64,000 nucleotides of DNA from Rhizaria sp. SCN 62-66. Lineage: Eukaryota. Made by a program: the position numbers and the translations under genes. The DNA is taken from positions 1 to 64,000 of the forward strand of contig MEDY01000191.1 of NCBI GenBank assembly GCA_001724265.1, in the 5' to 3' direction. Shown here piece by piece: positions 8,946-64,000 of the stretch. Every line of letters begins with the position of its first letter. Within the stretch, counting starts at the first letter, position 1. A model generated the notes under the pieces. The model was not told the DNA's origin. It saw only the letters and a list, made by a program, of their open reading frames with translations, and searched no databases.

Positions 8946-9693
8946 GGCGCGTGTGTGGCGCATGTGGCGCATGTGGGGCGCGCTGTACAGGGCACGAAGA
9001 CTGCTCTGCGACGCGCTTCGCACGCGAGACACTGTGCACTTTCTCGCACCTAGTCAGTCTGTAGTTCCACGCCGACATGATATGACTTTCATGCGGCTTG
9101 ATTTTGCTTCAATTTCCCGGCTTTTTACCTCCTACTCGTCTTCTATTGTGCTTTTGCTTTGCTTTGTTAGTTTGATGATTGACTCTGTCTTAGTTTGTTT
9201 GTGTTAACGAGGCCATGGCCAGCCGCCTTGCATTCCCGACTTCGCCGCGCAGCAACGCGCTGTGCTGTGTCGTGTCGCTGGAGATAGATGTGCGGCGGGA
9301 GTAGAGAGAACAGGTATTAGAGCGACGGCATCGGCAGCAGCATGTGCATGGGTGTGCTCGTGCCGTTTGTTGAAGTGCCTCCTTTCATGTTCCTTTTGAT
9401 TTCTAAGATTTTCTCAATAAAAACCTCGAACTAGTTTACAATAACCGATTGTATAAGTCGCGTCTTGGTATGACATTTTTGTTTTTCATGTTATTATCGC
9501 TATTGACGAACGAATGTATCCTGTGGGAGTTAACGCGTGTCGTGCACGAGCTTCGCGAAGGGGCGAGCTGCCTCCCCCGTGCCCGGTCCGTGAGGTCCAG
9601 TCAATGACACCTTAAAAAGGCTTGAACATTGCCAGCTGTCCGTCAGCGACACTGTGCATCGCCTTTTGCACTTTAACTTTGCAGTTTAGATAT

Positions 9694-12475
9694 ATGCCTC
9701 GCTTTTGGGTTGATGACGATGTCGCCCAGCTTATTGCTGAGGCAGGACGCCTTTTCAACCTGCAGTGCCTTACGACCGCCGTCGCGGGACGCATGCCGCT
9801 CGACAACGTGCTTCTCCCTCGGCCTCCGCAGCGCAGTACTTCGACTGCTCACGCGCAGCACTTTGCACCTCCGCTGCGCCCCGGCTCGCTGGTGCCGCCT
9901 GCCGCAGGCCGCACGCCGTCGTGCCCCGGCCGCGCCCTGGGCCTGCAGCCATCGGCGCTTGACGACCGCGCCTTCTCCCACGGCGGCCACCACGGCGCGT
10001 TCGGCGCCTGCGACGACGACGACGGTTTCGCGGACGTGGACGCGCACCCCGAGGAGGAGGACGCCTTCTCGGGCCCCGCCCCGCTGCCCCGCAACGCCTG
10101 CGACGTCGCGCGCCTGCTGACCGAGGCCGTCACCGCGCCCTTCCCGCTGCGCCCGCCTTCGCCGGTCTTCGCGCACGCCGCCCCGGCCGCCTCTCAAGGC
10201 GCTGCGGTTGCGGGCGCCTCTGCGTCCTCGTCCTCGTCGACCGCGTCGCAGGCCGCCCCAGGCGCGGGCACAAGGCCCACGCGCACGTCCTTCGCCTCGG
10301 AGGACGCGCCGGCGGGCCCCGCCGCCGCGGCCGCCGCCACGGCCGCCGCCGCGGCCGCCGCGACGGTGGCGTGCTGCAACGATCTTGCGTGGCGCATCGC
10401 GCGGCTGGCGCTGACGCCCGACGCGCTGGAGCAGCTCGACGAGAGCGGCTGGACGCCGCTGATGCACGCCGCACACGCCGGATCCGCGCCCGCGGCCGCG
10501 CTGCTGCTGGCGGCGCGCGCGAGCATGTCTGTGCGCACGAAGCATGGGTAGACACCGCTGATGCTGGCGTGCCAGGGCGGGCACGCGCCGACCGTGGCCG
10601 TTTTGCTGCAGGCGGGCGCGGACCCGCGCGCCTGCGACCACGAGGGCGTCACCGCCATGCACTTTGCCGCCGAAGTCTCCCCCTGCGCGCCCGCCGCCGC
10701 CGCCGTCGCCGTCGCGGCCAACACACAGAGCGCGCGGGGCGGCGGCAACATGGCCGGCTGCAGTGCGGGCAACGGCAGCACGCTGCACCACGCGACGCTC
10801 TCAAGCCACAGCGCGACCCCAGCTACGACTGCGGCGGCTGCGGCAGCGGCCAGCACGGCGGCCTGCACCGGCGCGGCACGCTGCGTGACGCTGCTGGCCA
10901 ATGCGCGCGCCAACACGGACGCGCGCGCGGGCTCCGGCGCGACGCCGCTGCTGCTGGCCGCGCAGAACGGGCACGCGCGCGCGGTCCAGGCGCTGCTCGC
11001 CACGGGCGCGCTGCCAGACCTGCCCTTCGAGGCCGCCGCGCCCGTCGCCGCCGCGCGCAACGCGCACAACGCGCACGGCGACATCGCCGCGACTGCAAAC
11101 GCGGACAGGGCTCTCGCAGCGAGCGCTGCGGCGGCGACGGTCGCGCTGCCGTCGCTGGTCGTGTACACGCCCATGCACGTCGCGGCCTCAGGGCCCGGCT
11201 GTCCCGGCTCCGGCGCCGCTTAGCCCGCGGACTCGGCGCACGCGCTTGCGCTCGCGGGTGCGTTGTCGGGCGAGCAGGCATGCGCGCACGGGACCTGCGC
11301 GCGCCGCTGCCGCAGCTGCCGCCGCGCGCTGCGCCGCCAGCGCCGCCGCGCGCAGCGCCGCCGCGACAGCAGCGCCGAAGGCAGCCTCGTGTCGAGCGCC
11401 ACGGCCCTGTCGGCGTTCGGCGACTCGATGTCGCAGTCTGTCGCCGGCTCATCCCTGGTCGGCACCTGCACCTGTGCCTGCGCAGCACGCACGGCGGCCG
11501 GCGCGCTCCCCGCCGCCGGCGCCCGCTTGCCGCCGCTGCTGCCGCAGCCGCCGGCGCTGCAGTCGCACGTTCACGCGCATGAGCACGCGCACGCGCACGG
11601 GCATGGGCAGCCGCTGCTGCCGACGGGTCTCGAGTCGGCGCGGAGCGGCCCCCCCGACGCCGGCCTCCGCCCGGCGACCCTGCTTTTCCCCGCGCCCGGC
11701 CTCCGCCTTGCCGCCGCCGTCCCCATGTCCGCCGTCCCCGCGTCCGCCGCTGCGGCCGCCTCCGCCGCCTCTGTTGCCGACGGTCCAGTGGCGCCCGCGC
11801 CGGGCCCGGTGGTGCTGACATCCGGCGGAGCGCGAGTGCGGCCTGTCGCCAGCGCCGCCGCCAGCACCACCGCCGCGGCCTCGCCCCTGACGGCCTCCGG
11901 CGCGCTCAGCGGGGCGTCGCCGGCGCAGTCGAGCGCGTCGCGGCTCTCGGGCGGCGCGTTATCGGCCTCGTGCAACAACCTCGCCGGCCTCGGCCTCAGC
12001 GCCGCGGGCGCAGTCTGCGTGTGCGGCGCCGCGGCGGCCGGCGGCGGCCAGGGCGGCGGCGGGTCGCTGTTGTTGTTGTCGTCATCATCGTCGTCGCACT
12101 CATACTCGCAGCCGCAGCTCAACCACCGCGGAGGCTCTTCGCTCTCTGCCGCCGCCGCCGCTGCCGGGGCCGTGGCGGCGCCGCTGCCCGCGGTCTCGGC
12201 GGCGGCCGTGGTGCGCCTGCTGCTCGCCGCGGGGCTCAACCCCACGACTGGAGCCACGACCTTCACCGTCTGTCCCGATGGTGATAGTGACGGCGAAGAC
12301 GGCTTCGACCTCGGCCGCCGCCGCCGCAGCGCCAGCAACGCGAGCAGCCACAGCCTCAGCCACAGCCACCCCGACATCGACACTGCCGCGGCTCTATTGC
12401 GCGCGCTCGGCCCCAGCGCTGGAGACAACAACGCCGGCGCCAGCGCTGGCACGGGCGCCGTCGCGAGCAGCGGCA

Positions 12476-12509
<34 letters not shown>

Positions 12510-14564
12510 CAGACTCTCGGCGCTGTGCCAGTGGCTGCAATGGCTGCGCCAGCGCCCGCGCGCGCCGCCGCTGCCGACGGCGTCGCCGCTGCACGTCGCC
12601 GCGCGCTTCAACTTGCCCGACGTTATCTCGGTGCTGCTGCGCGCGGGCGCCTCGGCGCTGGCCGACGCCAAGCTCTGCTGGGCCGATGCCAGCTGCAGCG
12701 CGCCAGAGATCTCGCCCGCCGCTATGGCAGCGCTCGCCGCGCACCGCAGCAGCCACGGCCCTCTGCAGACTGACGCGAGCGCCAATACAAGCGTGGACCA
12801 GACCCAGTCTCAGTCCGCGGCTCATCCTTCGGCCGCGCCGCTGTCGGCGCCCTCGCTGTCGCCCGCGGCCTCTGCCGCGCGGTCCCAGGCCTCGCAGATC
12901 TTGTCGCAGGCGCCGCCGCTCTGGCCGTGCTCCTGCGCCGCCCGCGGCTACGCGCCACGGCTGCCCAACGCCGCCGTCACCGAGGGCACGATGGTGGCGC
13001 TCACGCCACTGCAGTGCGCGCTGCTCTCGGGCAGCCGCCGCTCCGCGCGCGCGCTGCTGCGGGCCGGCGCGCTTATGCCGCCGCTGCTGCTGCAGCCGAG
13101 CCTGACCGCCTCGACGGCCCTGCTGGCGCTTCACAGCGGCAGCGGCGCCTGTGCTGCCGAGAGCGCTTGCGCCTGCGCCTGCGACCCGCTGTGGTGGGCC
13201 GTTGCGCAGGCCGCCGCGGGCGCCGCGAGCCGCAGCCGCACGAAGCGCGCGCGCGCGGCCACGCTTGCGGGCGCTGCCAGCGATGTCGCCGCTGCCGCCG
13301 CTGTCGTCGCGAACGCTGCGCACGCCGCCGCCGCCGCCGCTGCCGCGGCTGCTGTGGGCGATGCGATCGAGGCGGACGCACCTCACGGGCACGTGCACGC
13401 GGGCGCTGTGAGTGCTGTCGCGTCAGGCGTCGCGTGCGCCACCGCCATGGCCGGCACCGTGGCCGCGCGCGTGCGCGACTGGGTGACCGCCTCCGCCGCC
13501 GCCGCCGCCGCCGCGTATGTCGCCGTGGCCGCCGCCGCCGCGGCCGAGTGCGGCGCCGACGGCTCTGGCCCGGCGGACAAGCGCGCGAAGCGGCTCAAGG
13601 CTGAGGCGCAGGGCTGGCTCGCCGCCGCCGTCGCAGTCTCGGCCGGCTGGGCCGCGGCGCGCATGCACGTCAAGGGGCTGCCCACGGTCACGCTGTTGTC
13701 CCACTCGGTTACCTTGGCGTCAACGGCCACTGGGACTGAGGACAAGCTTGACACTGCTACTGCTCCTGCCACTGCGGCTGCGGACGAGGCTGAGGCTGAG
13801 AGCAATCAGGCCCCGAGCGGTGCCGCCCCGGCCCTGGACGCGAGGCCTGTCACGACGACCGTGAGCAGCGGCGAGTCCGTGCGGCGCCTGAGCGACTGCG
13901 GCGGCGACTGCGACGCGAGCGTGCATGTGGGCGTCGACGGCGACGGCGAGGGCAACGGCAACCGCAGCGACGCCCAGACGGAGATCGTTGCCGTCGACAA
14001 CGGCGCGGACCGGGACGCGCGCGCCAACATCCGCAAGGGCAAGAGCGCGCGCAAGGCGAGCGACGCGGACGTGGACTGCGACGGCAACAACAACAGCAGC
14101 AGCAGTGCGTGCCTCAACGACGACGACGACGATGTTGACGACGACGACGTTGACGACGATGACGACGACGAGGACGAGGACACGACCGGCAACGACGACG
14201 AAGAGGACGACTACGACAGCGACGATGACGACCACGAGCCCTACAACAAGAAAAACAACAACAGCAGCAGCTTCTACTTCTACAACAGCAGCAGCAGTGG
14301 GGCTTACGGTCACACCCACGCGTTCGCGAGCTACAGCTTCAAGGGCGAGCGGACGCTGCTGTCCACGCCGCCCCGCAGCGACGTTTCCTGCGCCCCCTCG
14401 GTGGCCCCGTCCAACGCCACCTCGCAGGCGCAGTCGGCGTCGCTGTCGCCGCCCCTGGTGACGCCGCCGCCATCGCTCATCGCCGCCGCCGGCCCGCCCG
14501 CGCTCGCCGCGTGGGCGCGCGCCCCCATCATTGCAGCCGCAGCTGCAACTGCGCAACAGCAGTC

Positions 14565-14595
<31 letters not shown>

Positions 14596-14868
14596 CGGCG
14601 GACGCAGCTCAAGGTTCCTGCGCTGTTGCACTTCGCGCCTGCTGCCGCGCTGGCCGCGGTGTTGGCTGTCGCAGTGTCTGTGGAGGGCGCCGGCGCAGCA
14701 CTGGCGCGGGCTGCGCTTGAAAGCGTGACCGGACCTGCTGTGCAGTGCAGCGAAGTCAGGGCGACAGCTGAAGCCGCTGCGCAAAACGCGAAGCTGGCCG
14801 GGAATGATGATATTGCGGACGTGATTGATGTGTGGTTAAATCAGAATAACTTGATCACGCAAAATTAA
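9694..14868 (+). CDS. Large ankyrin-repeat protein (~1724 aa), read through two in-frame TAG codons (10549-10551 and 11221-11223)
   Basis: Three ORF-track pieces (9622-10551, 10561-11223, 11263-14868) are in one frame and separated only by TAG. Ankyrin motifs GWTPLMHAA, G*TPLMLAC, GVTAMHFAA, GATPLLLAA, SPLHVAARFN and TPLQCAL run across all three. Ends TAA. Confidence 0.85.
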
Positions 14869-48000: not shown

Positions 48001-49517
48001 CAGCGGCAGTGGCGGCGGCTGCGGTGGGCTCGGCGGGGACGTGGGCCTCGGCGGCGGCGGCGGCGGCGTCAGAGCCAGAGCCGGGGGCAGAGGCTGCGGC
48101 GGCCGCGGGCACGGGCGCCAGCGCAGCGCCAGCAGCAGCGGCAGCGCTCGAGGTGTCACTCATCGCGGAGGCCGCAGCGGCGGCGGCGGGCACGAGTGGG
48201 GCCAGGGCCGCGTCAGCGGCCGCGGTGGCGGCAGCACTCCCGTCCGCCGCGGCGTCCGCGCCCGCGGCGACGGCCTGCGCGGCGGCGGCGGCGACGGCGG
48301 CGGCGACGGCGGCGGCGGCGTCGGCCGTGGCGTCGTTGCCGCCGCGGCCACCGGTGCCGCTGGGGTCGTCCCCGCCCTCGTCTTCGGCAGCGGCGGCGGC
48401 GGCGACCGCGGCGGAGGGCAGCGCAAGCGCGGTGACGGGCGCGGCGGCGGGCGCGGGGGCAGGGACGAGCACGGTGGCGGCCGTGAGCACGCGGTCGAGC
48501 GCGCGGGCGGCGTAGAGCGCCTCGGTGGCGGCCGCGGTGCGCGCGCACAGGGCCGACGCCGCAGCGTTGCGGGTGGCCGTCAGGCGCGCGCGCAGGGACA
48601 CCACGCGCTGCTCGCTCTGCGCCAGCTCGGATTGCGCCGAGATCGCGGCGGCGTCGGTGGCGGCAGCGGCGGCGGGGGCGGGGGCAACGTTGCTGTCAAT
48701 AGCGGCGACGAGGCTGGCCAGGGTCTATGGAGGTGGGAATAGCGCAAGACAGAAAATAAAGTCGGAATATAGATGAGACAAAAGTTGAAGCATACCATGT
48801 GTGAGTTCTACGATCACAGACGATTGTAGCACGGCGCTGGAGACGTACCTGTGTGAAGGCGGCGCGCTGGCGCTTGAGCTCGCGGTCGAGGCGGCGGGCG
48901 GCGCGCGCGGCGGCGGCCTCTGCGCGGGCCAGCTCGCGGCGCGCGTCCTCGGCGGCCGAGCCCTTGCTCTCCTTGTCCTTATCCTTCTCGCGCTCGCGGC
49001 CGCTGTTGGCGCTGGCGATCGGGTCGTCCTCGTCCTCGCCGTCGTCGTAGTCGTCGCTCTCTTCAGCTGCAGCCGTAGCTGCTGCCGTGGCGGTGGAAGA
49101 GTCGTCCAATATCGGCGCGGCCACAGAGGGCGGCGAGTGGCGCCGCAGCAACGCGAGGAAGGAGGCGGCCGCGGGCAGACGTGCGCCGGCCGCGGCGGCG
49201 GCGGCTGAGGCGGCTGTTTCAGCCACAGTATCCTTAGAGGCGCCGTCCGCAGCGGGGGCCGCGGGGGCCGCGGGGGCAGCCGCGGCGGCGTTGGCGTCGG
49301 CGGGCGCGAGCTGGGCGCGGAGACGCGCGAGGTGGTCGCCGAGCTCGGTCCAGTGGGCCGCAGTGAGCTCGAGCGCGAGCGTCTGCGAAGAGCGCTGGCG
49401 CTCAAGAGTCTGGACCTGCGCTTCGAGGCGCGAAATGTCCCTGTTCTTTTCGAGAAGCCGCAAGTACAGAGCGCGGTTGCGCCGCTTGAGTACTTTAACA
49501 CTGAGCTCAGTTGCCAT
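45020..49517 (-). CDS. BRE1: BRE1-like E3 ubiquitin ligase (H2B monoubiquitination); exons 49517-48849 and 48724-45020
   Basis: N-terminal LSVKVLKRRNRALYLRL coiled coil. C-terminal RING CTVCSQRDRSVVITKCFHTFCKKCIDDNLEARRRKCPACARAFGASDVHAVYL matches the BRE1/RNF20 pattern. Ends TAA. Confidence 0.9.
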
Positions 49518-52769: not shown

Positions 52770-54838
<2,069 letters not shown>

Positions 54839-55644
54839 TCAAGAGCTGCAGAATTTTAAGATATAAACCAAAAGTACATAGGAAGGCTGTTGACATCATA
54901 CAACAGTGCAAGCAATGATCCAATTTTGAGATATTGATCACTGACCACTTCCGATTCGGGGCCTCTTCTCTCTTGCTTCGGTCGCGCTCTCGCAGCCCAC
55001 GGTCACTTTGACTGCTCACGGTCTCGGTACACTTTCAAACAGTCAAAAGACGGCAGAAAATTTCTGCTTTGATATAAAATTGTATCAGTCGTATATAAAA
55101 AATTGCCAAAAACATAGTTCTGTTGCAAAAACAGCTGGCGTAGCGAATATCTATGGAAATACGCGACATAATTATTTCAAGCTTTTTTGTGGTCAGTTGC
55201 ACATCGAGCGAAAAGCACTGGTATGTTAAAAATGGCGCTGATATCGCTGGCCAGATCGTCAATCGTGAATTTGACTAATTTCCAGCATATAACTTTGACC
55301 TTCTGTTTATCTCCCTCAATAATGTTTCTTCGGCCTATGATTTGACTCCGGGCCCCGCAGTGGCCGTCAGTTCCACGCTTTGCACATATCAAGTCAGCTT
55401 CGCGATCGCGTTTTCTTGAATGCCAGAGTCACAATGATTTTGTAACCGGAATTTGTCAGTTGATTTAGAATTTACATGCGCGCTTACAGTGCATATTTTG
55501 CCACTTCCTCATCATACTGTTGTCTACCTTCGCTGCTTGAAGTCTTCACATCACTCGGCATATTGTTGCCCGCCAACCCAACTACGCTCCTCACCGCGTC
55601 CTGTCACGCACCCGTTGCTTCTCAGCATAAAATCTTTCTTGAGC

Positions 55645-58600
55645 ATGTCAGACGCGTCGCCAACATCTTTGGTGGGCTATCTTTTGCGTCTTGATACGCC
55701 AGTTTCCTCCTCCTCTGCGGCCGAGACTGTCCCTGCATTCCCCTCCCCGCCGCCCTTCTCGCACCCCAGCTCCGTCGCCACCGCCGCGACGGAGCCGCTG
55801 CGCCTCCCGCTTTACTCCGGCGTTAACCTTGTTAGCACCTACCATTTTATCAACGATGGCGACGCTATTCCCTCAAAGATTGCTTCTGCGACAGTCTTTG
55901 CAGCAAAGGCTGCGAAAGCATCAGCAGAGGCGACAGCAGAGCGCGTCCGGACGCTGGAGGCGCTCCACACCCTGCTCACAGTGACTGCGAGCAGGACCAG
56001 CGCTGGCGGCGATGCTAAGCAGGAGCAAGAGCAGAAACAGACGCGGAAACCGAAGCAGAAGCAGAAGCAGGAGCAGAAGCAGGAGCAGGAGCAGGAACAG
56101 AAGCGGGAGCAGGAGCTTGACAACGTGACAGTTACCGTCTCTGCGACGTGCATGGCGCCCTCTAGGTGCGCTTTTGCCGCTGCTCTTGGCTGCTTAAGCG
56201 CGCATGCCGAATCTGCTGTGGCGATCACTGCTCCCTACAACAACGAGTCGAACAGTAAAGAGGGCGACGACGCAGGCGCGGCTGCAACAGCGACCGGGGC
56301 AGGCGTGTCGCCATCGCCCAGGGCTGCTAAGGATGCGAAGGGTGCGGTTGTGGCGTATCAATGCCCCTGTTGTGCCCCTGCTTTGTTTACAGGCTCTAGC
56401 ACTGTGCCCGCTATTACTCTGACTGACGGCGCTGTGCTTCTACTTTGTGGCGGCCTTCGCTACCAATTTCACGATATTTCGACCGCACTGACTGCGGCCG
56501 AGTCAGTTGCAAGCGCCGCGGACCTGAAATCAGAAGTCAAGGTCGAGACTGTAGCGGATGCTGAAGGCGAGGCGAAGGAAAGCGCGACTGCGGCGGCAGA
56601 GCAGTCTGCAGCGGCTGTGACAAGTGCAAGCCGCTGCAACAGCTTTGTGCTAGGCAGCAACACCAACAGCCCGAACGCCAGCGTGGACAGCGGCACCCAC
56701 CACAACGGCTACAACAGTCTCGCGAGCATTAGCGACAGCAGCAGCAGCCACAGCAGCCTCGGTGTGAGCGCCGGCTCGATCGCCGACTCGGTCTCTGCCG
56801 CAGATGCAGATGCAGACGTCGACGCCGACGGCGCCAGCGCCAGCGTCAGCGCCAACGCCAGCGCCAACGCGGGCACGAGCCTTGCTGCCAGAGCGAGCAC
56901 TGGCGACTGCGACGGTGATGGCGGTGACGACATCGATATTGACGGTGACGGCGACGTCATCGACTGCAACGGCAGTGGCGGCTTCATCGCGAGCAGCTCT
57001 GATCCCATCCCGATGACGCTGGCCACCTCCGACAACCTGTGCGGCGGCGAGAGCGCCGAAGATGCGGGGGCCGACGGCCGTGCGGGCGCTGCGAAGGCCG
57101 TTGCGATGACTGACGGCGACGAGGGCGACAGCAATCGCGCCGATGGCAACGGGAGCACGAGTGTTGCTGCGGGCGCTGTTGCTGTTGCTGGTGATGCGAG
57201 CAATGCTGCTGCTACTGCTGCTGCTGTTGCAGCAGCTGCCACTGACGACTTTGTGTCGCCCACGTTCCTGAATGATTTCTTCAACGACGACGACGAGCAA
57301 GACGCCGCCTATACCCAGAGCAGCCCGACTGAGGGCAACAATCAACACACAGCTACCAGCAGCAACAGTACCACTAACTCCAACACCGACAGTCTTGGTT
57401 CTATCATCGCCTCAGCGCGGCAGCAGCAAGTCCAAGATTAGCAGCAACACAAGCAGCAGCAGAGCGCTCGCCTGTCTACGGGCAGCGACGCCGCGACGGG
57501 CGACGTCACGTGCTACCGGGACGGCTTGACTTCTCTGCAGGACGACTCGCTGCTGTACCGGCCCTTCACCAACGGCAGCAACAACACCAAGAGCGTGAGC
57601 GCCAGTGCTGTCGGCAGTGCAGCTCCTGCCTCTGCCTCTGTTTCTGCCTCGCATGCTCACCCCCAGTCGGCTCGCCCCCAGTCGCGCGCGCAGTCGCTGC
57701 TGCAGTCCCAGCCGCAGCCGCAGCCCCAGTCCCAGCCGCAGCCCCCGCTCCGGCCGCAGCCGCAGGGCAAGAGCAACCTCGGCGGACTGCAGCTGCCCGC
57801 CCCGGACTCGTCTTCGCAGCCGCAGCCGCAGAGTCTGGGTGCGACGCTGGTGCTGCCTGCGGCCGCAGATGCTGACGCGACACTGGTGCTTGAGTCGGCG
57901 ACGATGGTGATTGACAACGGCAATAATAACCACAATGACAACGACAGCGATGCTGCGACGCTTGTCATCGGTTTCAATAACAACACGCAGGCTAATAGTG
58001 ACACTGAGGACGATGTTTCTGCGACGCTTGTTATTGGCGATAGCAATCATGACAGCGCGTTTAACCCTACTCTTGTGATTAACAATGATAACGACAAGAC
58101 TGACGATGCCAGTAAAACCAACAATAGATTTGACGGCGCGAGTACGCTTGTTATCTCTGCTGACAACGAACACGATTCTGGACACGACGCGACTTTGGTC
58201 ATTGATGACACTAATACGGGTGCCAACCACGTCAAAACTGACGACAAGTTTGACATGACTCTTGTGCTCAATAGCCATGTCAACACGAACTCGATCCCGA
58301 ACAGTATTAAGGAAAACGACGCTGCGAACCAAGAGGTTTATGACATCAAGACTGCCACTGCGACGGCGATTAACGCAGCACGCAGTATCAGCGGTATCAG
58401 CGTCCGCAGTCATAGTAGGAGCGCCAGTGTGAGCAAAAACAACAGCCAGAGTTCGACCACTGGCGTTTGTGATGAGGACATTGATGTTGTTGAAAGCGGC
58501 AGCAGCAGCAGCACCAACATCAACAACAACAGTGAAGACAGCGCTGCTGCCAACGATGTCGACGACGACAACCTAAACGCCACCGCCACTGCTGACCTGC

Positions 58601-61600
58601 TTCTGAGCAACGTCGCCAAAGACTCCGCTGTGCCCGCGCAGATTAACCGTGAACACACTGAGTGTGAGCAGAGCGCTGTTGTAGTTGCGGGTGATTCTCA
58701 CGCTGATGACAGCGCTGTCGGCAGCACTGCCGGCAACACCGACGACAACGGGGCCACTGCCGACAATGGCGATGACCCAGCCTCCGACAGCGCGAACTTC
58801 GACTCCTCTTCGTTGTTCCCCAGCACGCTGTCGCTCGACAACGACCGCCGGCCCGCTGAGGGCGAGGACGAGGGCGTGAGCGCGGGCGAGAGCGAGTGCG
58901 AGGGCGAGGGCGAAAGTGACGCGGGCGCGGGCCGCGATAACGGTGAACAGGGCCCGGGGGGCTCGGGAGACAGCAGTGAGCACAAGGACAGCGGTGTTGC
59001 GATGCATGATGACGACGACGACGACGTCAACACTGTCGCCGAGGTGAAGCCGCCTGCTGCTGAGCTGAAGTCTCAGGTTTCCATGGCGAGGTCACGCGCG
59101 TCGAGGGCGAAGGCGCCTCTCAAGTCAGACGATGATGGCGACGATGAGAAGCAGACGGAAGACGGCTTTGACGAGCAGCTACTTCAGCAATCCCAGAAGC
59201 AACTTCAAGAGCAGCTCCAAGAGCCAAAGCAAGAGCAAGCGGAAGAGCATGAGAACGAGCATGACGCTGCCGAGATCAAGCCGCGCGGCAAGCGTGCGCG
59301 CGCTGCGCCAGTCTCGCTTGCGTCGCGCGTCGAGTCGTTGTCGCAAGGCCATCCAGCCTCTGTCGATGACAAGGAGTGTGCTGCCGCTTCAGAAGTTGCT
59401 GCTGCTGTAGCTGCTTCTGCTGCTGATGACGTATCTGACACGATTGCAGCGGCAGCAACAAGCATCACTAAGACGTCCAGCACATCTGTTACGAACGCGA
59501 CCAGCATCAAGGCTCCAATTACGAAGGCGGCTAGCTGCAAGGCAAGTGTTGCCAAGGAGGCTGAGACGCCAGCGCCAGACCAGGTCTCCGAGTCTACGGA
59601 AGCGGCTGCTGCTCCCTATGATGCTGCTCCTAAGGTCCCTGCTGCGGGCTCGAGCGCCCGTCCTGCGCGCAACAGTCGGAACCACAATTTAAATGCTGCC
59701 GCTGAGACGGACACTGCCACTGCCGAGAAGGCTACCATCAATAGCCCCACGACTTGCGATGACACGAGCAACAAGAGTGTTGCAACTGCTGCGAGGAGCA
59801 AGGCGAAGAATCCGCCCGCAAGCAAGAACGCCAAGAGTAAGAGCAAGCCTAAGAGCAGGTCTGACAACAACGACAGCGACTATGACAGTGACGACGACAG
59901 CAACACTGCTGCCGTTGACACCACGACAGCACCGAAGGCGAGCGCAACCGCGGCTTCCGCGAGTGTTGGTGGCGGAGACACTGCGACAGCGAAGCCCCCC
60001 CGCGTCGTCGTCGTGTTCTCTCAGTCTGCGCTCGACGTTGACGCCACCGCCGCGGCGCTCACAGCCCTCGGCGCCATTTGCATCACGAGCAGCAGCGGCA
60101 GCGGCAGCAAGGACGCAACCAGCGCGAGCGCTACAAAGGTGTCAAAGCAGTCCGGCCGCTCTTCTCGCGGCGCCGGCGCGAACGGCGCCGCTGCAGAGGC
60201 CGGCGTGAGCCCGGCGAGTGAGGACCTGTGCCCGTGGCCGACGCACTTGGTGTCGTCGGGTCAGTTGCGCACGGCCAAGGCGCTGGCGGCGCTGGCCTCC
60301 GCACGCTGGGCGCTGTCGGACGACTGGGCCGCGCGCTCCATCGCCGCAGGCCGCCTGCTGCCCGAGGCGCCCTTCGCGCTTTCGCCCGCGCTGTCCGCGG
60401 ACGGCGGCGGCGAGGATGCAAACGGCGGTGCCGCGACTGAGGGCGGCGCGACCAAGGGCGGCAAGAGGGGCAAGGCGGCCGCTGCAGGCGCTGCAGTCGC
60501 TGCCGACGCTGGCGCGGCCACGACGGCTGCGCGCGCCGCTGTGGTGACGTTGGAGCGCGCCTACGCGTTTTCGCTGTCGGACTCGCTGCATCGCAACCGC
60601 TACAGCTCGCTTCATCTGCGCGCACCCTCTCTATCAGAGCCACACGCGCAGGCAGGCTCAGGTTGGCTGCACGGCTGCGTGCTGCTGCTGCTGCCCGGGC
60701 TGCGGATGCCGACGGCCGAGCTGCGCGCTGTGGCCGCCGCGGCGGGCGGCGCTGTGCTAGCGCTGACGCCCGCCACCGCTGCCGCCGCAGCCAAGGCCGC
60801 CATCGCTGCTGGTTCTGCAGCCGGTGCAAGTGCCAGTGGCGGTGAAATTGATGGTAACAGCGCGAGGGCTGCGGGCGTGGCCGCGTTTGTGGCGGCTCTG
60901 TCCGAGCGCGACCCGCTCTACCAAGCCGCAGCGAGGAGCCACGCCGCGCCCCGCAAGGGTCAGTCCCCAGCGCAGTCGGAGGCCGAGGCCGAGGTGGCGG
61001 CGCTGGCGCAGTCCCCGCACCTGCTGGCCATGACGGCGGCTGAGCTTGCCGTTGTCGCCGCGCGGGCCTGCGCCGGCGCCCTTCCGCCCGCGCACTGCTA
61101 CCATAGCGGCAGCGTGCGCCAGCGCGGCGACCGAGACGAAGAGGAAGAAGAGGAGGAGGAAGAGCAAGATGATAACGGAGCTGGCGCTCGTGGCCGTTCG
61201 TGGCCAGACGCCAAGAGCTGCCGCGAGTGGTTGCTCACGGCACCATGCAGTATCAACGCCACCAACAGCAGCGCCAGTAGTGACACTATTGCGATTGCTG
61301 CCAAGGGCGGCCGTGCTGCCAAGACTGCTCCCCGCGGCACCGCCAGCGCCGTCACCAGCAGCAGCGGCGTTGGCGCTGGACCGGCCGTCATCATTGTCGG
61401 CGAGGCTATTGCGACAGGCTCGAGCTCGAACAGCAAGAGCGCCAGCGCGAGTGCCGCATCTGTTCCGAAGCCAGTGGCGGGCGTTCTTGCTGACTTGCGC
61501 AAGGCTGGTGTACTGTCATCCTCGGACGCTGACGCCGACGGCAGCAGCTCGCAGGTGCAGGAGCAGAAGCCGAAGGGCCGTGCCGGTGGCCGCGGCAAGG

Positions 61601-61746
61601 CTGGAGTCAGCGGCGCTCCTATCCAGCCCGCTGCCAGTGTCAGTGCCGACAACGCAGGCCATGGCGTGTGGCTCTGCTCGGTCGAGGTCGTGCTCACTGG
61701 GGCGCTGCGGCAATGCGCACAGCCGGAGCTTTTCCCCCTGCTCTAA
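55645..61746 (+). CDS. MDC1/PTIP-like tandem-BRCT protein (~2033 aa) with a possible degenerate N-terminal FHA domain, read through an in-frame TAG at 57439-57441
   Basis: ORF pieces 55453-57441 and 57526-61746 are in one frame and separated only by one TAG. BRCT motifs: RVVVVFS, THLVSSGQLRTAKALAAL, LSDDWAARS, ERAYAFSLSDSL, WLHGCVLLL, AAGG, SVEVVLTGALRQ..PELF. Ends TAA. Confidence 0.78.
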
Positions 61747-62127
61747 GCAACTGACAGTTACATAGGGCACCAACATAATGAATCATTTACCTAGAACTTT
61801 CGATCAGTAATGTAACAATGAGAAAGTGACAATAAAATACATCACTTTATCGACTTGATGGATGATAAACAAGTATAAACACGTTGTTTATTTACAAATT
61901 GGCACACTATGTTGTTTTGAATCGATAATTAAAGTCGTCACACAAACAAAACACGCACTAGAGTGATTATAAAAGGCATATGAAATCACAATCACACAAT
62001 CAATCACAATATGATAAAAGGAAGGACTTGAAAAAAAGAAATCTGAGCACAATAGCAGTTGTAATCCAACAGCTAAAGCAAAAAGTTGCGATTGAGCTAT
62101 TAGTACTATACTGTTCTTGCATTGCAC

Positions 62128-62163
62128 TCGTAAATTGAACAAAAGTCGTAAATTGAACAAAAG
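62128..62163. repeat. 18-bp direct repeat x2 (TCGTAAATTGAACAAAAG)
   Basis: Directly visible in the AT-rich spacer between two convergent genes. Confidence 0.8.
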
Positions 62164-62324
62164 ACTGACTTGTTGTACAGGGAGACAGGAACGATTCGAT
62201 ACATGAATGGCGACAACAAGATGTTGTGAAAGGGTTGCGATTAAGCAACATACGCAGATGAGAGGCTGTTTTGAATCCCTGTGCCACAATCACGTCTTGC
62301 TATGGAGCTATGATGTCCTCGCAC

Positions 62325-64000
62325 TCAGGCGCGCTTGCGTCCGCGCCCGCGGCCATTACCGACGCGCGCCATGATGGCGAGCACAAGGGTCGCGGCGGCG
62401 TTGGCTGCGGCGACCAGGACGGTGCCGGCGACGGACACCACGGTCGCCGCCACGCCCCACAGATGAGCCAGCGTCGCGTCGGATGCGGCATCGCTCTCGG
62501 AGACGGCACCGGTCGCACTGCCATCTCTGGCGGCGGCGACGGCGGTGTCCGCGGACGCTCTCGGGCTGGTGGTGCTGCTGCTGCTGTCATTCATGTTGGC
62601 GCCCGCGACGGGGGTGCCGGGGAAGGCAAAGGAGCTGGCGCGGGTCAGCAGGCTCAGCGCGAGGCTGGGGGCGCTACTCTCGCTGCTCGCAGGCTGCTGC
62701 TGAGCCGCCTGCTGCTGCTGCTGCTGCTGGCGCAGCAGGGCCTTGCGCGCCTTGCCGCTGCTGGCGCCCTTACCCGCGCGCTTCTTGCCGGGGGACTGCA
62801 ACGCGAGCTGGCCGCCCGCGGCGACGGCCTTGCGCGCGGCCGCGGCCGCGTCGCGGTGCTCGTCGGCCCCGTCGTCGTCGCTATCCTCCTCGTTGTCCGT
62901 CGCCCAGCCGGAGTCGTCGCCACGCGCCTCTTCCGCGTCCGCGCCGCCCTTGCTGCGCACCATAGTGACCGCCGCGCCGCTGGCGGGCGCTACTGGGGTC
63001 GCAGACGAGAAGGACGACGACGGCGACAGGGAGCCGTCACGATCCTTGCTGTCGCCGCCAGCGTTGCTGCTGAGGTTGCTGCGGTGGCCCTTGCCGGGCG
63101 TCCGCGACGCCTTGGTGCTCGCACTTGCGTTGTCGTTCATCTAATCACTCTAGCGGCGCAGACGGCGGAGCGCGGCGGCCTCGGCCTCAGCCTCAGCGGC
63201 AGCCTCAACGGCGTTGGCGGCAGCCGTGGCGGCAGCGGCGCGGGTGGCCTCGGGCCCCTGGTAGGAGAGGTAGACCTCGAGCACGGTGACCATGATGCCC
63301 GAGAGGAGCGGGCCGAGGATAACGCCGATGGTGCCGAAGACGTAGAGACCCATGGCGAGCGAGGTGCCGACGAGGAAGGTGTTGCCAGGGATGATGCCGT
63401 AGATGAGCGAGTCGCCGGCCGAGAGCAGGAGCTGGACGGTGACGACGAGCACGGCTTTGACGGGCGCGCCGGTGATGGCGAGCCCCGCGGCGACGGGGAC
63501 CCAGACGACCCAGGACGAGAGCACGGGCAGCATGGCGGTGAAGCCGGCGATGAAGGACAGGATCAGCGAGATGTCGATGCCGACGAAGAGGAACACGAGG
63601 TACGTGCCGAGCATGTGCGAGAGGCCGACAGCGGTGGAGGACACGAAGACGGACACGACGGACTTGTTGAGCGAGCGCATGAGTTTGCCCGAGTCCTCCT
63701 GCGAGAAGGGCGAGAGGTCGGTGAGCAGCCCGCCCCACGACAGCTGCGTCTGCAGGAAGTAGAAGAGGCACGACGCAAAGGTCACGAACGAAACAAGCAG
63801 CGAGACCGAGTCAGCGAGCACGCCCAGGACGCCGCCCAGCGCGCCCGTGAGGTGGTTGCTAAACTGCATCGCAGTGTCGACGATCGTGGTCTTCACCACC
63901 GCGGCGTCCCAGGGCGGCAGCTCCCAACCCCACGTCTTGGCGTAGCGCTCGAACCAGAGGTAGTAGGGCGAGGAGCCGAAGTCGTCAAGCAGCGTCTGGA
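62325..64000 (-). CDS. TMEM245/AI-2E-family polytopic membrane protein, 3' part, continued through two in-frame TAG codons (63150-63152 and 63141-63143)
   Basis: Multiple hydrophobic helices with LPVLSSWVVWVP and GTSLAMGLYVFGTIGVILGPLL (AI-2E/TMEM245-like). The frame is open from the window edge and continues RR*SD*MNDN into the 271-aa ORF ending TGA at 62325. Confidence 0.75.

What the first reader, a model, noticed from the sequence alone, without database searches (positions are those of the whole stretch)
57415..57465. TAG embedded in a glutamine tract points to UAG=Gln
Seen: CGG CAG CAG CAA GTC CAA GAT TAG CAG CAA CAC AAG CAG CAG CAG (RQQQVQD*QQHKQQQ). Read-through joins the N-terminal putative FHA-like part to the C-terminal BRCT pair, giving an MDC1-like architecture. 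Inference: TAG arose from CAG by one transition and behaves as a synonymous Gln codon.
Basis: partly seen in the sequence, partly recalled or inferred. Interest (0 to 1): 0.75.

Follow-up and report, generated by a model that had tools for sequence, protein, structure and literature searches.

The report
Protist reads UAG stop as glutamate
This uncultured protist uses the stop codon UAG as a rare amino-acid codon, most likely for glutamate rather than the glutamine first proposed, while keeping UAA and UGA as stops, a variant of the nuclear genetic code that I did not find described.

Summary
The in-frame TAG (57439-57441) is real and is also present in a run from another study. TAG is a sense codon genome-wide. 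After coding sequence, 26 of 32 TAGs continue as coding, against 1 of 122 TAA/TGA. The only eRF1 gene found carries one at conserved Glu108. It is the rarest codon, 35 of 139,429.

The residue is probably Glu, not Gln. The one tRNA(CUA) found has the acceptor stem of the genome's tRNA-Glu. The eRF1 site is Glu in 34 of 38 close homologs, and a kinase hinge site is Glu in 25 of 33 paralogs. eRF1 has T32S and T58K at otherwise near-invariant stop-reading positions.

Against this: TAG is enriched in polyQ tracts, one ubiquitin copy has TAG at a Gln site, few conserved sites exist, and the tRNA search was not exhaustive. TAGs in polyQ tracts fit CAG>TAG transitions tolerated as Glu, or mixed Glu/Gln decoding. 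The FHA/MDC1 label is unsupported. Lineage unresolved; no proteomics.

The parts
57439..57441 (+). In-frame TAG, sense codon (probably Glu), codon 599 of the gene
   Evidence: present in independent run X6
57418..57462 (+). Gln-rich stretch around the TAG; low complexity, no Pfam match, so it cannot by itself identify the residue
55645..61746 (+). Single reading frame of 2033 codons ending in TAA; largely low-complexity protein with a C-terminal BRCT-like region
60241..60378 (+). Weak BRCT-like match (RTT107_BRCT_5, 17.9-19.1 bits, cut-off 27); Atlas neighbours are BRCT clusters at 0.82-0.86, a lead only
57838..58272 (+). Nine short x-x-T-(L/M)-V-(I/L) repeats; possible phospho-Thr docking motifs (inference)
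10549..10551 (+). In-frame TAG inside an ankyrin repeat of the ORF 9616-14868; variable column, Glu and Gln score alike
11221..11223 (+). Second in-frame TAG of the ankyrin ORF
63141..63152 (-). Two in-frame TAGs three codons apart in a coding-like minus-strand frame
48725..48727 (-). TAG that looks like an intron acceptor of the RING-finger gene, not a sense codon (inference from the upstream text)

Best explanation
The organism has a variant nuclear code: UAG mainly encodes glutamate, and UAA and UGA remain the stops. A tRNA-Glu gene changed its anticodon to CUA (shown: gene, fold, Glu-type acceptor stem; inferred: charging by GluRS). eRF1 changed at Thr32 and Thr58 and reads UAG poorly (shown: substitutions; inferred: effect). 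UAG stays very rare. It arises by GAG>TAG synonymous change and by CAG>TAG transitions, tolerated as Gln>Glu in unconstrained polyQ tracts; the TAG of this finding is most likely one of the latter (inferred).
For: Sense, not stop: 26 of 32 TAG against 0 of 63 TAA and 1 of 59 TGA are followed by coding sequence, and none of the other 6 is a clear terminator. Error or nonsense models are rejected, P 4e-5 to 3e-3. The only eRF1 found has TAG upstream of GGQ, identical in record L199. Glu: tRNA(CUA) at G000:C84 scores 58 bits in Rfam, shares base pairs 1-72 to 5-68 with both tRNA-Glu types, and has 47 identities to tRNA-Glu(CUC) against 32-36 to tRNA-Gln. eRF1 column: E 34, Q 2 of 38 homologs at 60% identity or more; GAG/GAA in 73 of 74 matched metagenome loci, the 74th being this organism. 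Kinase hinge: E 25, D 4, Q 1 of 33 paralogs. SUV3 site is Asp in human; kinase L061 site is Asp in its two closest paralogs. Pfam sums over 13 sites: E 774.9, Q 771.2, K 770.6, L 754.0 bits (added by hand). TAG lies in acidic tracts as often as GAG, 8.6% against 9.1% (CAG 1.6%). eRF1 T32S (T in 18 of 18), M34V (20 of 20), G57S (26 of 26), T58K (T in 25 of 26). An engineered human tRNA-Glu(CUA) inserts about 95% Glu (PMC12204705).
Against: Only two strongly conserved sites were found. At the kinase site the nearest solved relatives have Ser (KSR) or Gln (RAF). The Glu-over-Gln Pfam margin is 3.7 bits, 2.4 of it from one site. A ubiquitin copy has TAG where the genome's ubiquitin has Gln. TAG lies in Gln-rich tracts in 4 of 35 sites (GAG 0.7%), with three more seen later. 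A context mixture rejects pure Glu (lnL -72.4) more than pure Gln (-69.3), best near half (-65.7). The pattern that found the tRNA required A38 and would miss a Gln-type tRNA(CUA) with U38; the Rfam search scored 63 of 506 candidates. TOR, ABCA, ion-channel and Hel308-like sites were uninformative. No RNA spanning a TAG and no proteomics.
Confidence: 0.74

Rival explanations
1. UAG is decoded ambiguously as Glu and Gln, perhaps with residual termination: the single-copy Glu-body tRNA(CUA) is partly charged with Gln, or competes with tRNA-Gln(CUG) or an undetected Gln-type suppressor. That would explain why the codon is so rare.
For: TAG contexts are about half Glu-like and half Gln-like. TAG is the rarest codon and absent from exons in six 10-kb dynein stretches. 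C36 is a GluRS determinant in E. coli, and several amber suppressors take Gln, G73 favouring it in one case (PMC9976931); E. coli tRNA-Glu suppressor gave 59% Glu and 17% Gln (PMC12204705). This tRNA has G73.
Against: The mixed context also follows from mutation supply: with transitions weighted 6-fold, CAG supplies 54% and GAG 11% of new TAGs. A human-derived tRNA-Glu(CUA) showed no Gln. TAG is kept at a conserved Glu of the only eRF1 found.
Confidence: 0.15
2. UAG encodes Gln (table-15 type, as in Iotanema).
For: Enrichment in polyQ tracts; ubiquitin copy with TAG at a Gln site; Gln at the hinge in RAF; a Gln-type tRNA(CUA) is not excluded.
Against: The tRNA(CUA) found is Glu-type and unlike the Gln-type suppressor seen in another organism's locus L275. 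eRF1 column 34 E to 2 Q; hinge 25 to 1. TAG contexts differ from CAG (P=0.015) and CAA (P=0.003), although a synonymous transition should make them alike.
Confidence: 0.07
3. The TAGs are nonsense mutations, pseudogenes or G>T / C>T sequencing errors under the standard code.
For: TAG is very rare; such cases are common in other genomes of this scan (unchecked notes); the ubiquitin copy may be decaying.
Against: 26 of 27 in-frame stops are TAG, where 62-74% is expected. TAG is not used as a terminator. A cognate tRNA exists. eRF1 would be truncated. The TAG is shared by independent runs, and database gene calls break at the same TAGs (P0022, P0276).
Confidence: 0.02
4. UAG encodes Leu (as in rhizarian exLh) or another residue such as Lys, Tyr, Ser or Trp.
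For: A rhizarian precedent for Leu exists (PMC5304391). Lys is only 4.3 bits below Glu.
Against: Leu is 20.9 bits below Glu over 13 sites. The tRNA has a short variable loop and a Glu acceptor stem. Tyr, Ser and Trp were not scored against Pfam.
Confidence: 0.02

Closest known systems
Oligohymenophorea sp. PL0344 code (UAG=Glu, UAA=Lys; PMC10553269, passages read)
   Same: UAG read as Glu by tRNA-Glu-derived tRNA(CUA)
   Different: There UAA is also reassigned and ten tRNA(CUA) genes exist; here UAA is the commonest stop (63 of 122), one gene was found, and the genome is GC-rich
Iotanema spirale and phyllopharyngean ciliates, UAG=Gln (table 15; PMC5304391 sections 8-9, PMC11687900 section 11 and passages)
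   Same: UAG alone reassigned, UAA and UGA kept as stops; eRF1 Thr32 changed (T32G in Iotanema, T32S here)
   Different: Residue is probably Glu; UAG is far rarer here, under 1% of Glu codons against about 8% of Gln codons in Iotanema
Rhizarian exLh and TARA phyllopharyngean MAGs, UAG=Leu (same papers)
   Same: UAG alone reassigned
   Different: Leu scores 20.9 bits below Glu; eRF1 Leu69 is unchanged here, L69A in exLh
Blastocrithidia nonstop, UAR=Glu (PMC10196215, passages); peritrich UAR=Glu, table 30 (recalled)
   Same: New tRNA-Glu with anticodon cognate to UAG
   Different: Both UAA and UAG are Glu there; UAA is never in frame here (0 of 63)
MDC1-like BRCT scaffold proteins (features recalled)
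   Same: Long low-complexity protein with a C-terminal BRCT-like region and repeated Thr motifs
   Different: No FHA support, one SDT-acidic motif, no TQxF

Membership tests
UAG-only stop-to-sense nuclear codes | In-frame UAG in intact conserved genes | tested here: met
   eRF1, kinases, SUV3, TOR, ABCA
UAG-only stop-to-sense nuclear codes | UAA and UGA kept as terminators, UAG not used as one | tested here: met
   TAA 63 of 63 and TGA 58 of 59 end coding; none of 6 non-continuing TAG is a clear terminator (about 0.98 Mb of 34.9 Mb, overlaps included)
UAG-only stop-to-sense nuclear codes | Cognate tRNA with CUA anticodon | tested here: met
UAG-only stop-to-sense nuclear codes | Altered eRF1 stop-reading motifs | tested here: met
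   T32S, M34V, G57S, T58K; functional effect not tested
UAG-only stop-to-sense nuclear codes | Residue confirmed in protein | not testable with these tools
   no proteomics
Table 15 type (UAG=Gln) | Conserved columns at UAG dominated by Gln | tested here: not met
   eRF1 34 E to 2 Q; hinge 25 E to 1 Q; few sites, one Gln site
Table 15 type (UAG=Gln) | tRNA(CUA) of Gln type | tested here: inconclusive
   The one found is Glu-type; the search could miss a Gln-type gene
UAR=Glu codes and PL0344 | UAG at Glu columns with tRNA-Glu-derived tRNA(CUA) | tested here: met
UAR=Glu codes and PL0344 | UAA also reassigned | tested here: not met
   0 of 63 TAA continue as coding; no UUA anticodon among 48 distinct own tRNA sequences
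UAG=Leu code (exLh) | Leu columns and Leu-type tRNA | tested here: not met
MDC1 | N-terminal FHA domain (recalled) | tested here: inconclusive
   No Pfam or Atlas hit; single-sequence model has pLDDT 41
MDC1 | C-terminal tandem BRCT (recalled) | tested here: inconclusive
   One sub-threshold BRCT match; Atlas 0.86, lead only; model pLDDT 38
MDC1 | SDT and TQxF repeat clusters (recalled) | tested here: not met
   One SDT-acidic motif, two TQ, neither TQxF
Rhizaria / Cercozoa | Insertion at the polyubiquitin junction (PMC6133090) | tested here: inconclusive
   No junction in the assembly; ubiquitin genes start with two extra residues

The most novel reading that the evidence does not exclude
A reassignment caught early. 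UAG is still contested between one Glu-body tRNA(CUA), Gln insertion and a weakened eRF1, and the UAG at eRF1 codon 108 is a feedback switch: more eRF1 activity on UAG truncates eRF1 itself, holding read-through at a set level. One TAG in eRF1 has a 10% chance probability at the average rate, so feedback is allowed but not shown.
Probability: 0.15. Interest if true: 0.92.

Novelty: new variant of a known kind. Interest (0 to 1): 0.78.

Why it matters
The papers read list UAG-only nuclear reassignments to Leu, Gln and Ser, and UAG=Glu only where UAA is reassigned too. UAG=Glu with UAA as stop would be a further code variant, in a GC-rich, intron-bearing protist. Both parts of the machine are visible in one genome: a Glu-type tRNA(CUA) and an eRF1 changed at Thr32, the residue reported to contact the G of UAG. 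That makes codon capture versus ambiguous intermediate testable, and gives a natural eRF1 variant that may ignore UAG alone. At 0.025% of codons the code is easy to miss: database gene calls are already cut at these TAGs. The organism occurs in wastewater and bioreactor runs, where metaproteomes may exist.

Tried and rejected
Neighbour-residue classifier: Glu-minus-Gln score -1.2, between Glu (+31 to +52) and Gln (-43 to -78) codons; not decisive. Family searches with no usable exonic TAG in the matches: ABC, AAA, dynein N2, SMC, AMP-binding, tRNA-synt_1c. Ten TAGs reported inside matches were dropped as intron acceptors or intronic: L055, L062, L089, L179, L181, L184, L185, L186, L188, L280, plus the first TAG of L180 and L281; L056, L057, L058 and the match-edge TAG of L063 were not used for the same likely reason. 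TAGs listed together with TAA/TGA in some UCH and SNF2 matches were not fetched. Sites L183 and L059 were not scored against Pfam. TOR homolog search gave 2 hits (Glu, Ala); yeast and human have Ser. ABCA site is Pro or Cys in animals. Kinase homolog search returned only the organism's own truncated call. Both structure predictions were too poor to use; no fold search was run. Lineage: RuvB2 homologs and cluster look-up gave no labelled close relative; no polyubiquitin junction. RNA run X5 has no listed piece across the TAG, and runs with small shares were not used as habitat evidence. No CAG/TAG or GAG/TAG polymorphism was seen at the site. Earlier findings on this genome: none.

Full report
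Observation. The codons are as described; the TAG is at 57439-57441. With TAG read through, one frame runs 55438-61746 and ends at TAA. From ATG 55645 the protein has 2033 residues and TAG is codon 599. A contig of run X6 spans 57404-57681 with a single other letter at 57419, and an X4 contig also spans the site; these runs belong to other studies than the possible source. No plausible intron removes the codon. No listed RNA piece spans it.

The genome. G000 is a eukaryote of 34.9 Mb in 714 contigs, with GT-AG introns, at least ten dynein heavy chains and a divergent 18S with four group I introns. I could not place it. That it is not a ciliate is an inference from GC content and intron size, not a tree.

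Is UAG a sense codon? I trained a coding model on fetched loci. Among 139,429 codons flanked by coding sequence, 35 are TAG, the rarest of all. After strongly coding sequence, 26 of 32 TAG continue as coding, against 0 of 63 TAA and 1 of 59 TGA; the other six TAGs look like continuing or shadow frames. If errors or nonsense mutations made these codons, 62-74% of in-frame stops should be TAG; 26 of 27 are (P 4e-5 to 3e-3 under four mutation models). The eRF1 search gave one eRF1 and one pelota-like gene, and eRF1 carries a TAG at human position 108, upstream of GGQ; record L199 is identical. Database gene calls P0022 and P0276 start after or end at these TAGs.

Which residue? A pattern search found one tRNA with a CUA anticodon, on contig C84. 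It folds normally, scores 58 bits and is single-copy by DNA search. Its first five acceptor pairs equal those of both tRNA-Glu types, while the tRNA-Gln genes begin with GG and have a different stem. Its best match among own tRNAs is tRNA-Glu(CUC), 47 identities against 32-36 for tRNA-Gln. A Gln-type suppressor in another organism's locus (L275) looks like tRNA-Gln, a useful control. The limit: my pattern needed A38 and no intron, and the Rfam search scored 63 of 506 candidates, so a Gln-type tRNA(CUA) is not excluded. A near-identical copy of tRNA-Gln(CUG) would probably have been scored with the five found (inference).

Conserved columns. eRF1: E 34, Q 2, D 1, P 1 of 38 homologs at 60% identity or more; E 88 of 145 overall; GAG/GAA in 73 of 74 matched loci of 80. 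Kinase hinge (L187): E 25, D 4, Q 1, other 3 of 33 paralogs, out of about 150 kinase matches; but KSR has Ser and RAF Gln. SUV3: Asp in human. Kinase L061: Asp in its two closest paralogs. TOR: Glu, Ala, Ser. A ubiquitin fused to a Peptidase_S74-like piece has TAG where own ubiquitin has Gln. Pfam sums over 13 sites, four residues tried: E 774.9, Q 771.2, K 770.6, L 754.0 (added by hand). Leu is excluded; Glu leads Gln modestly.

Why TAG sits in polyQ. TAG is in Gln-rich tracts at 4 of 35 sites (CAG 15%, GAG 0.7%) and in acidic tracts at 3 of 35 (GAG 9%, CAG 1.6%). A mixture fit is best near half and half, and rejects both pure cases. Strain differences are 12 transitions to 4 transversions among the 16 rows listed for 55117-63417, so CAG supplies about five times more new TAGs than GAG. 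If UAG were Gln, nearly all TAGs should be Gln-like; half are not. If UAG is Glu, synonymous GAG-derived and tolerated CAG-derived TAGs give a mixture. This step assumes ordinary selection on missense changes and is an inference. Mixed decoding gives the same pattern.

Mechanism. eRF1 has T32S, M34V, G57S and T58K at positions nearly invariant in the homologs fetched; NIKS, E55, L69, S70 and YxCxxxF are intact. Thr32 is reported to bind the G of UAG and is Gly in Iotanema (PMC5304391 section 9). The likely working: eRF1 stops at UAA and UGA and poorly at UAG; tRNA-Glu(CUA) inserts Glu. A human-derived tRNA-Glu(CUA) inserted about 95% Glu, an E. coli one 59% Glu and 17% Gln (PMC12204705 passages; identity rules from PMC9976931 passages). 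No exonic TAG was seen in six 10-kb dynein stretches, which suggests the codon is inefficient or young (inference).

The gene itself. Pfam gives one sub-threshold BRCT match and nothing FHA-like; the Atlas gives BRCT clusters at 0.82-0.86 and nothing for the N-terminus; both models are unusable. It is probably a BRCT-type scaffold; MDC1 membership is not shown.

Comparison and novelty. Read: PMC5304391 (passages, sections 8 and 9), PMC11687900 (passages, section 11), PMC10553269, PMC10196215, PMC6133090, PMC9976931, PMC12204705 (passages). They list UAG-only changes to Leu, Gln and Ser, and UAG=Glu only with UAA reassigned. Searches showed no report of UAG=Glu with UAA as stop; the library lacks most subscription papers. 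I read no supplements; the eRF1 alignment of PMC5304391 may show T32S in other taxa. Table 30 and the MDC1 motifs are recalled.

Verdict. Observation confirmed; recoding about 98% likely; Glu-dominant 0.74, mixed Glu/Gln 0.15, Gln 0.07. New variant of a known kind; interest 0.78.

Noticed in passing
L123:1594-1596 (minus strand; G000:C63): The only eRF1 gene found needs UAG read-through at Glu108 to be made; possible feedback loop, chance probability about 0.10.
   Followed up: partly
L031:1501-5945 (G000:C706): 18S gene of 4.4 kb with four group I introns; the first insertion has extra sequence that may encode a homing endonuclease (impression, not tested).
   Followed up: no
L128:1500-1830 (G000:C681): Ubiquitin fused to a Peptidase_S74-like piece in an AT-richer region with a duplicated upstream domain; looks like a mobile or viral element; TAG at a Gln site.
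   Followed up: partly
L275: Another organism's eRF1 locus (GC 0.32) carries a Gln-type tRNA with a UUA anticodon, probably a UAR=Gln ciliate.
   Followed up: no
window 57838-58272: Nine x-x-T-(L/M)-V-(I/L) repeats in the BRCT-like protein, possibly FHA-binding phospho-Thr motifs (role recalled and inferred).
   Followed up: no
window 53636-55645: The BRCT-like gene is head-to-head with RuvB-like 2 across about 1.1 kb.
   Followed up: no
G000:C55:67652-89044: Open frame of 11,291 codons holding ion-transport repeats, 12,541 when a TAG is read through.
   Followed up: partly
L172, minus strand, offset 2826: The single in-frame TGA followed by coding sequence; repeat-like context, selenocysteine or error not tested.
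   Followed up: no
L126, L129, L130: Ubiquitin genes begin with two extra residues and some end in a short tail; may reflect the rhizarian polyubiquitin insertion.
   Followed up: partly
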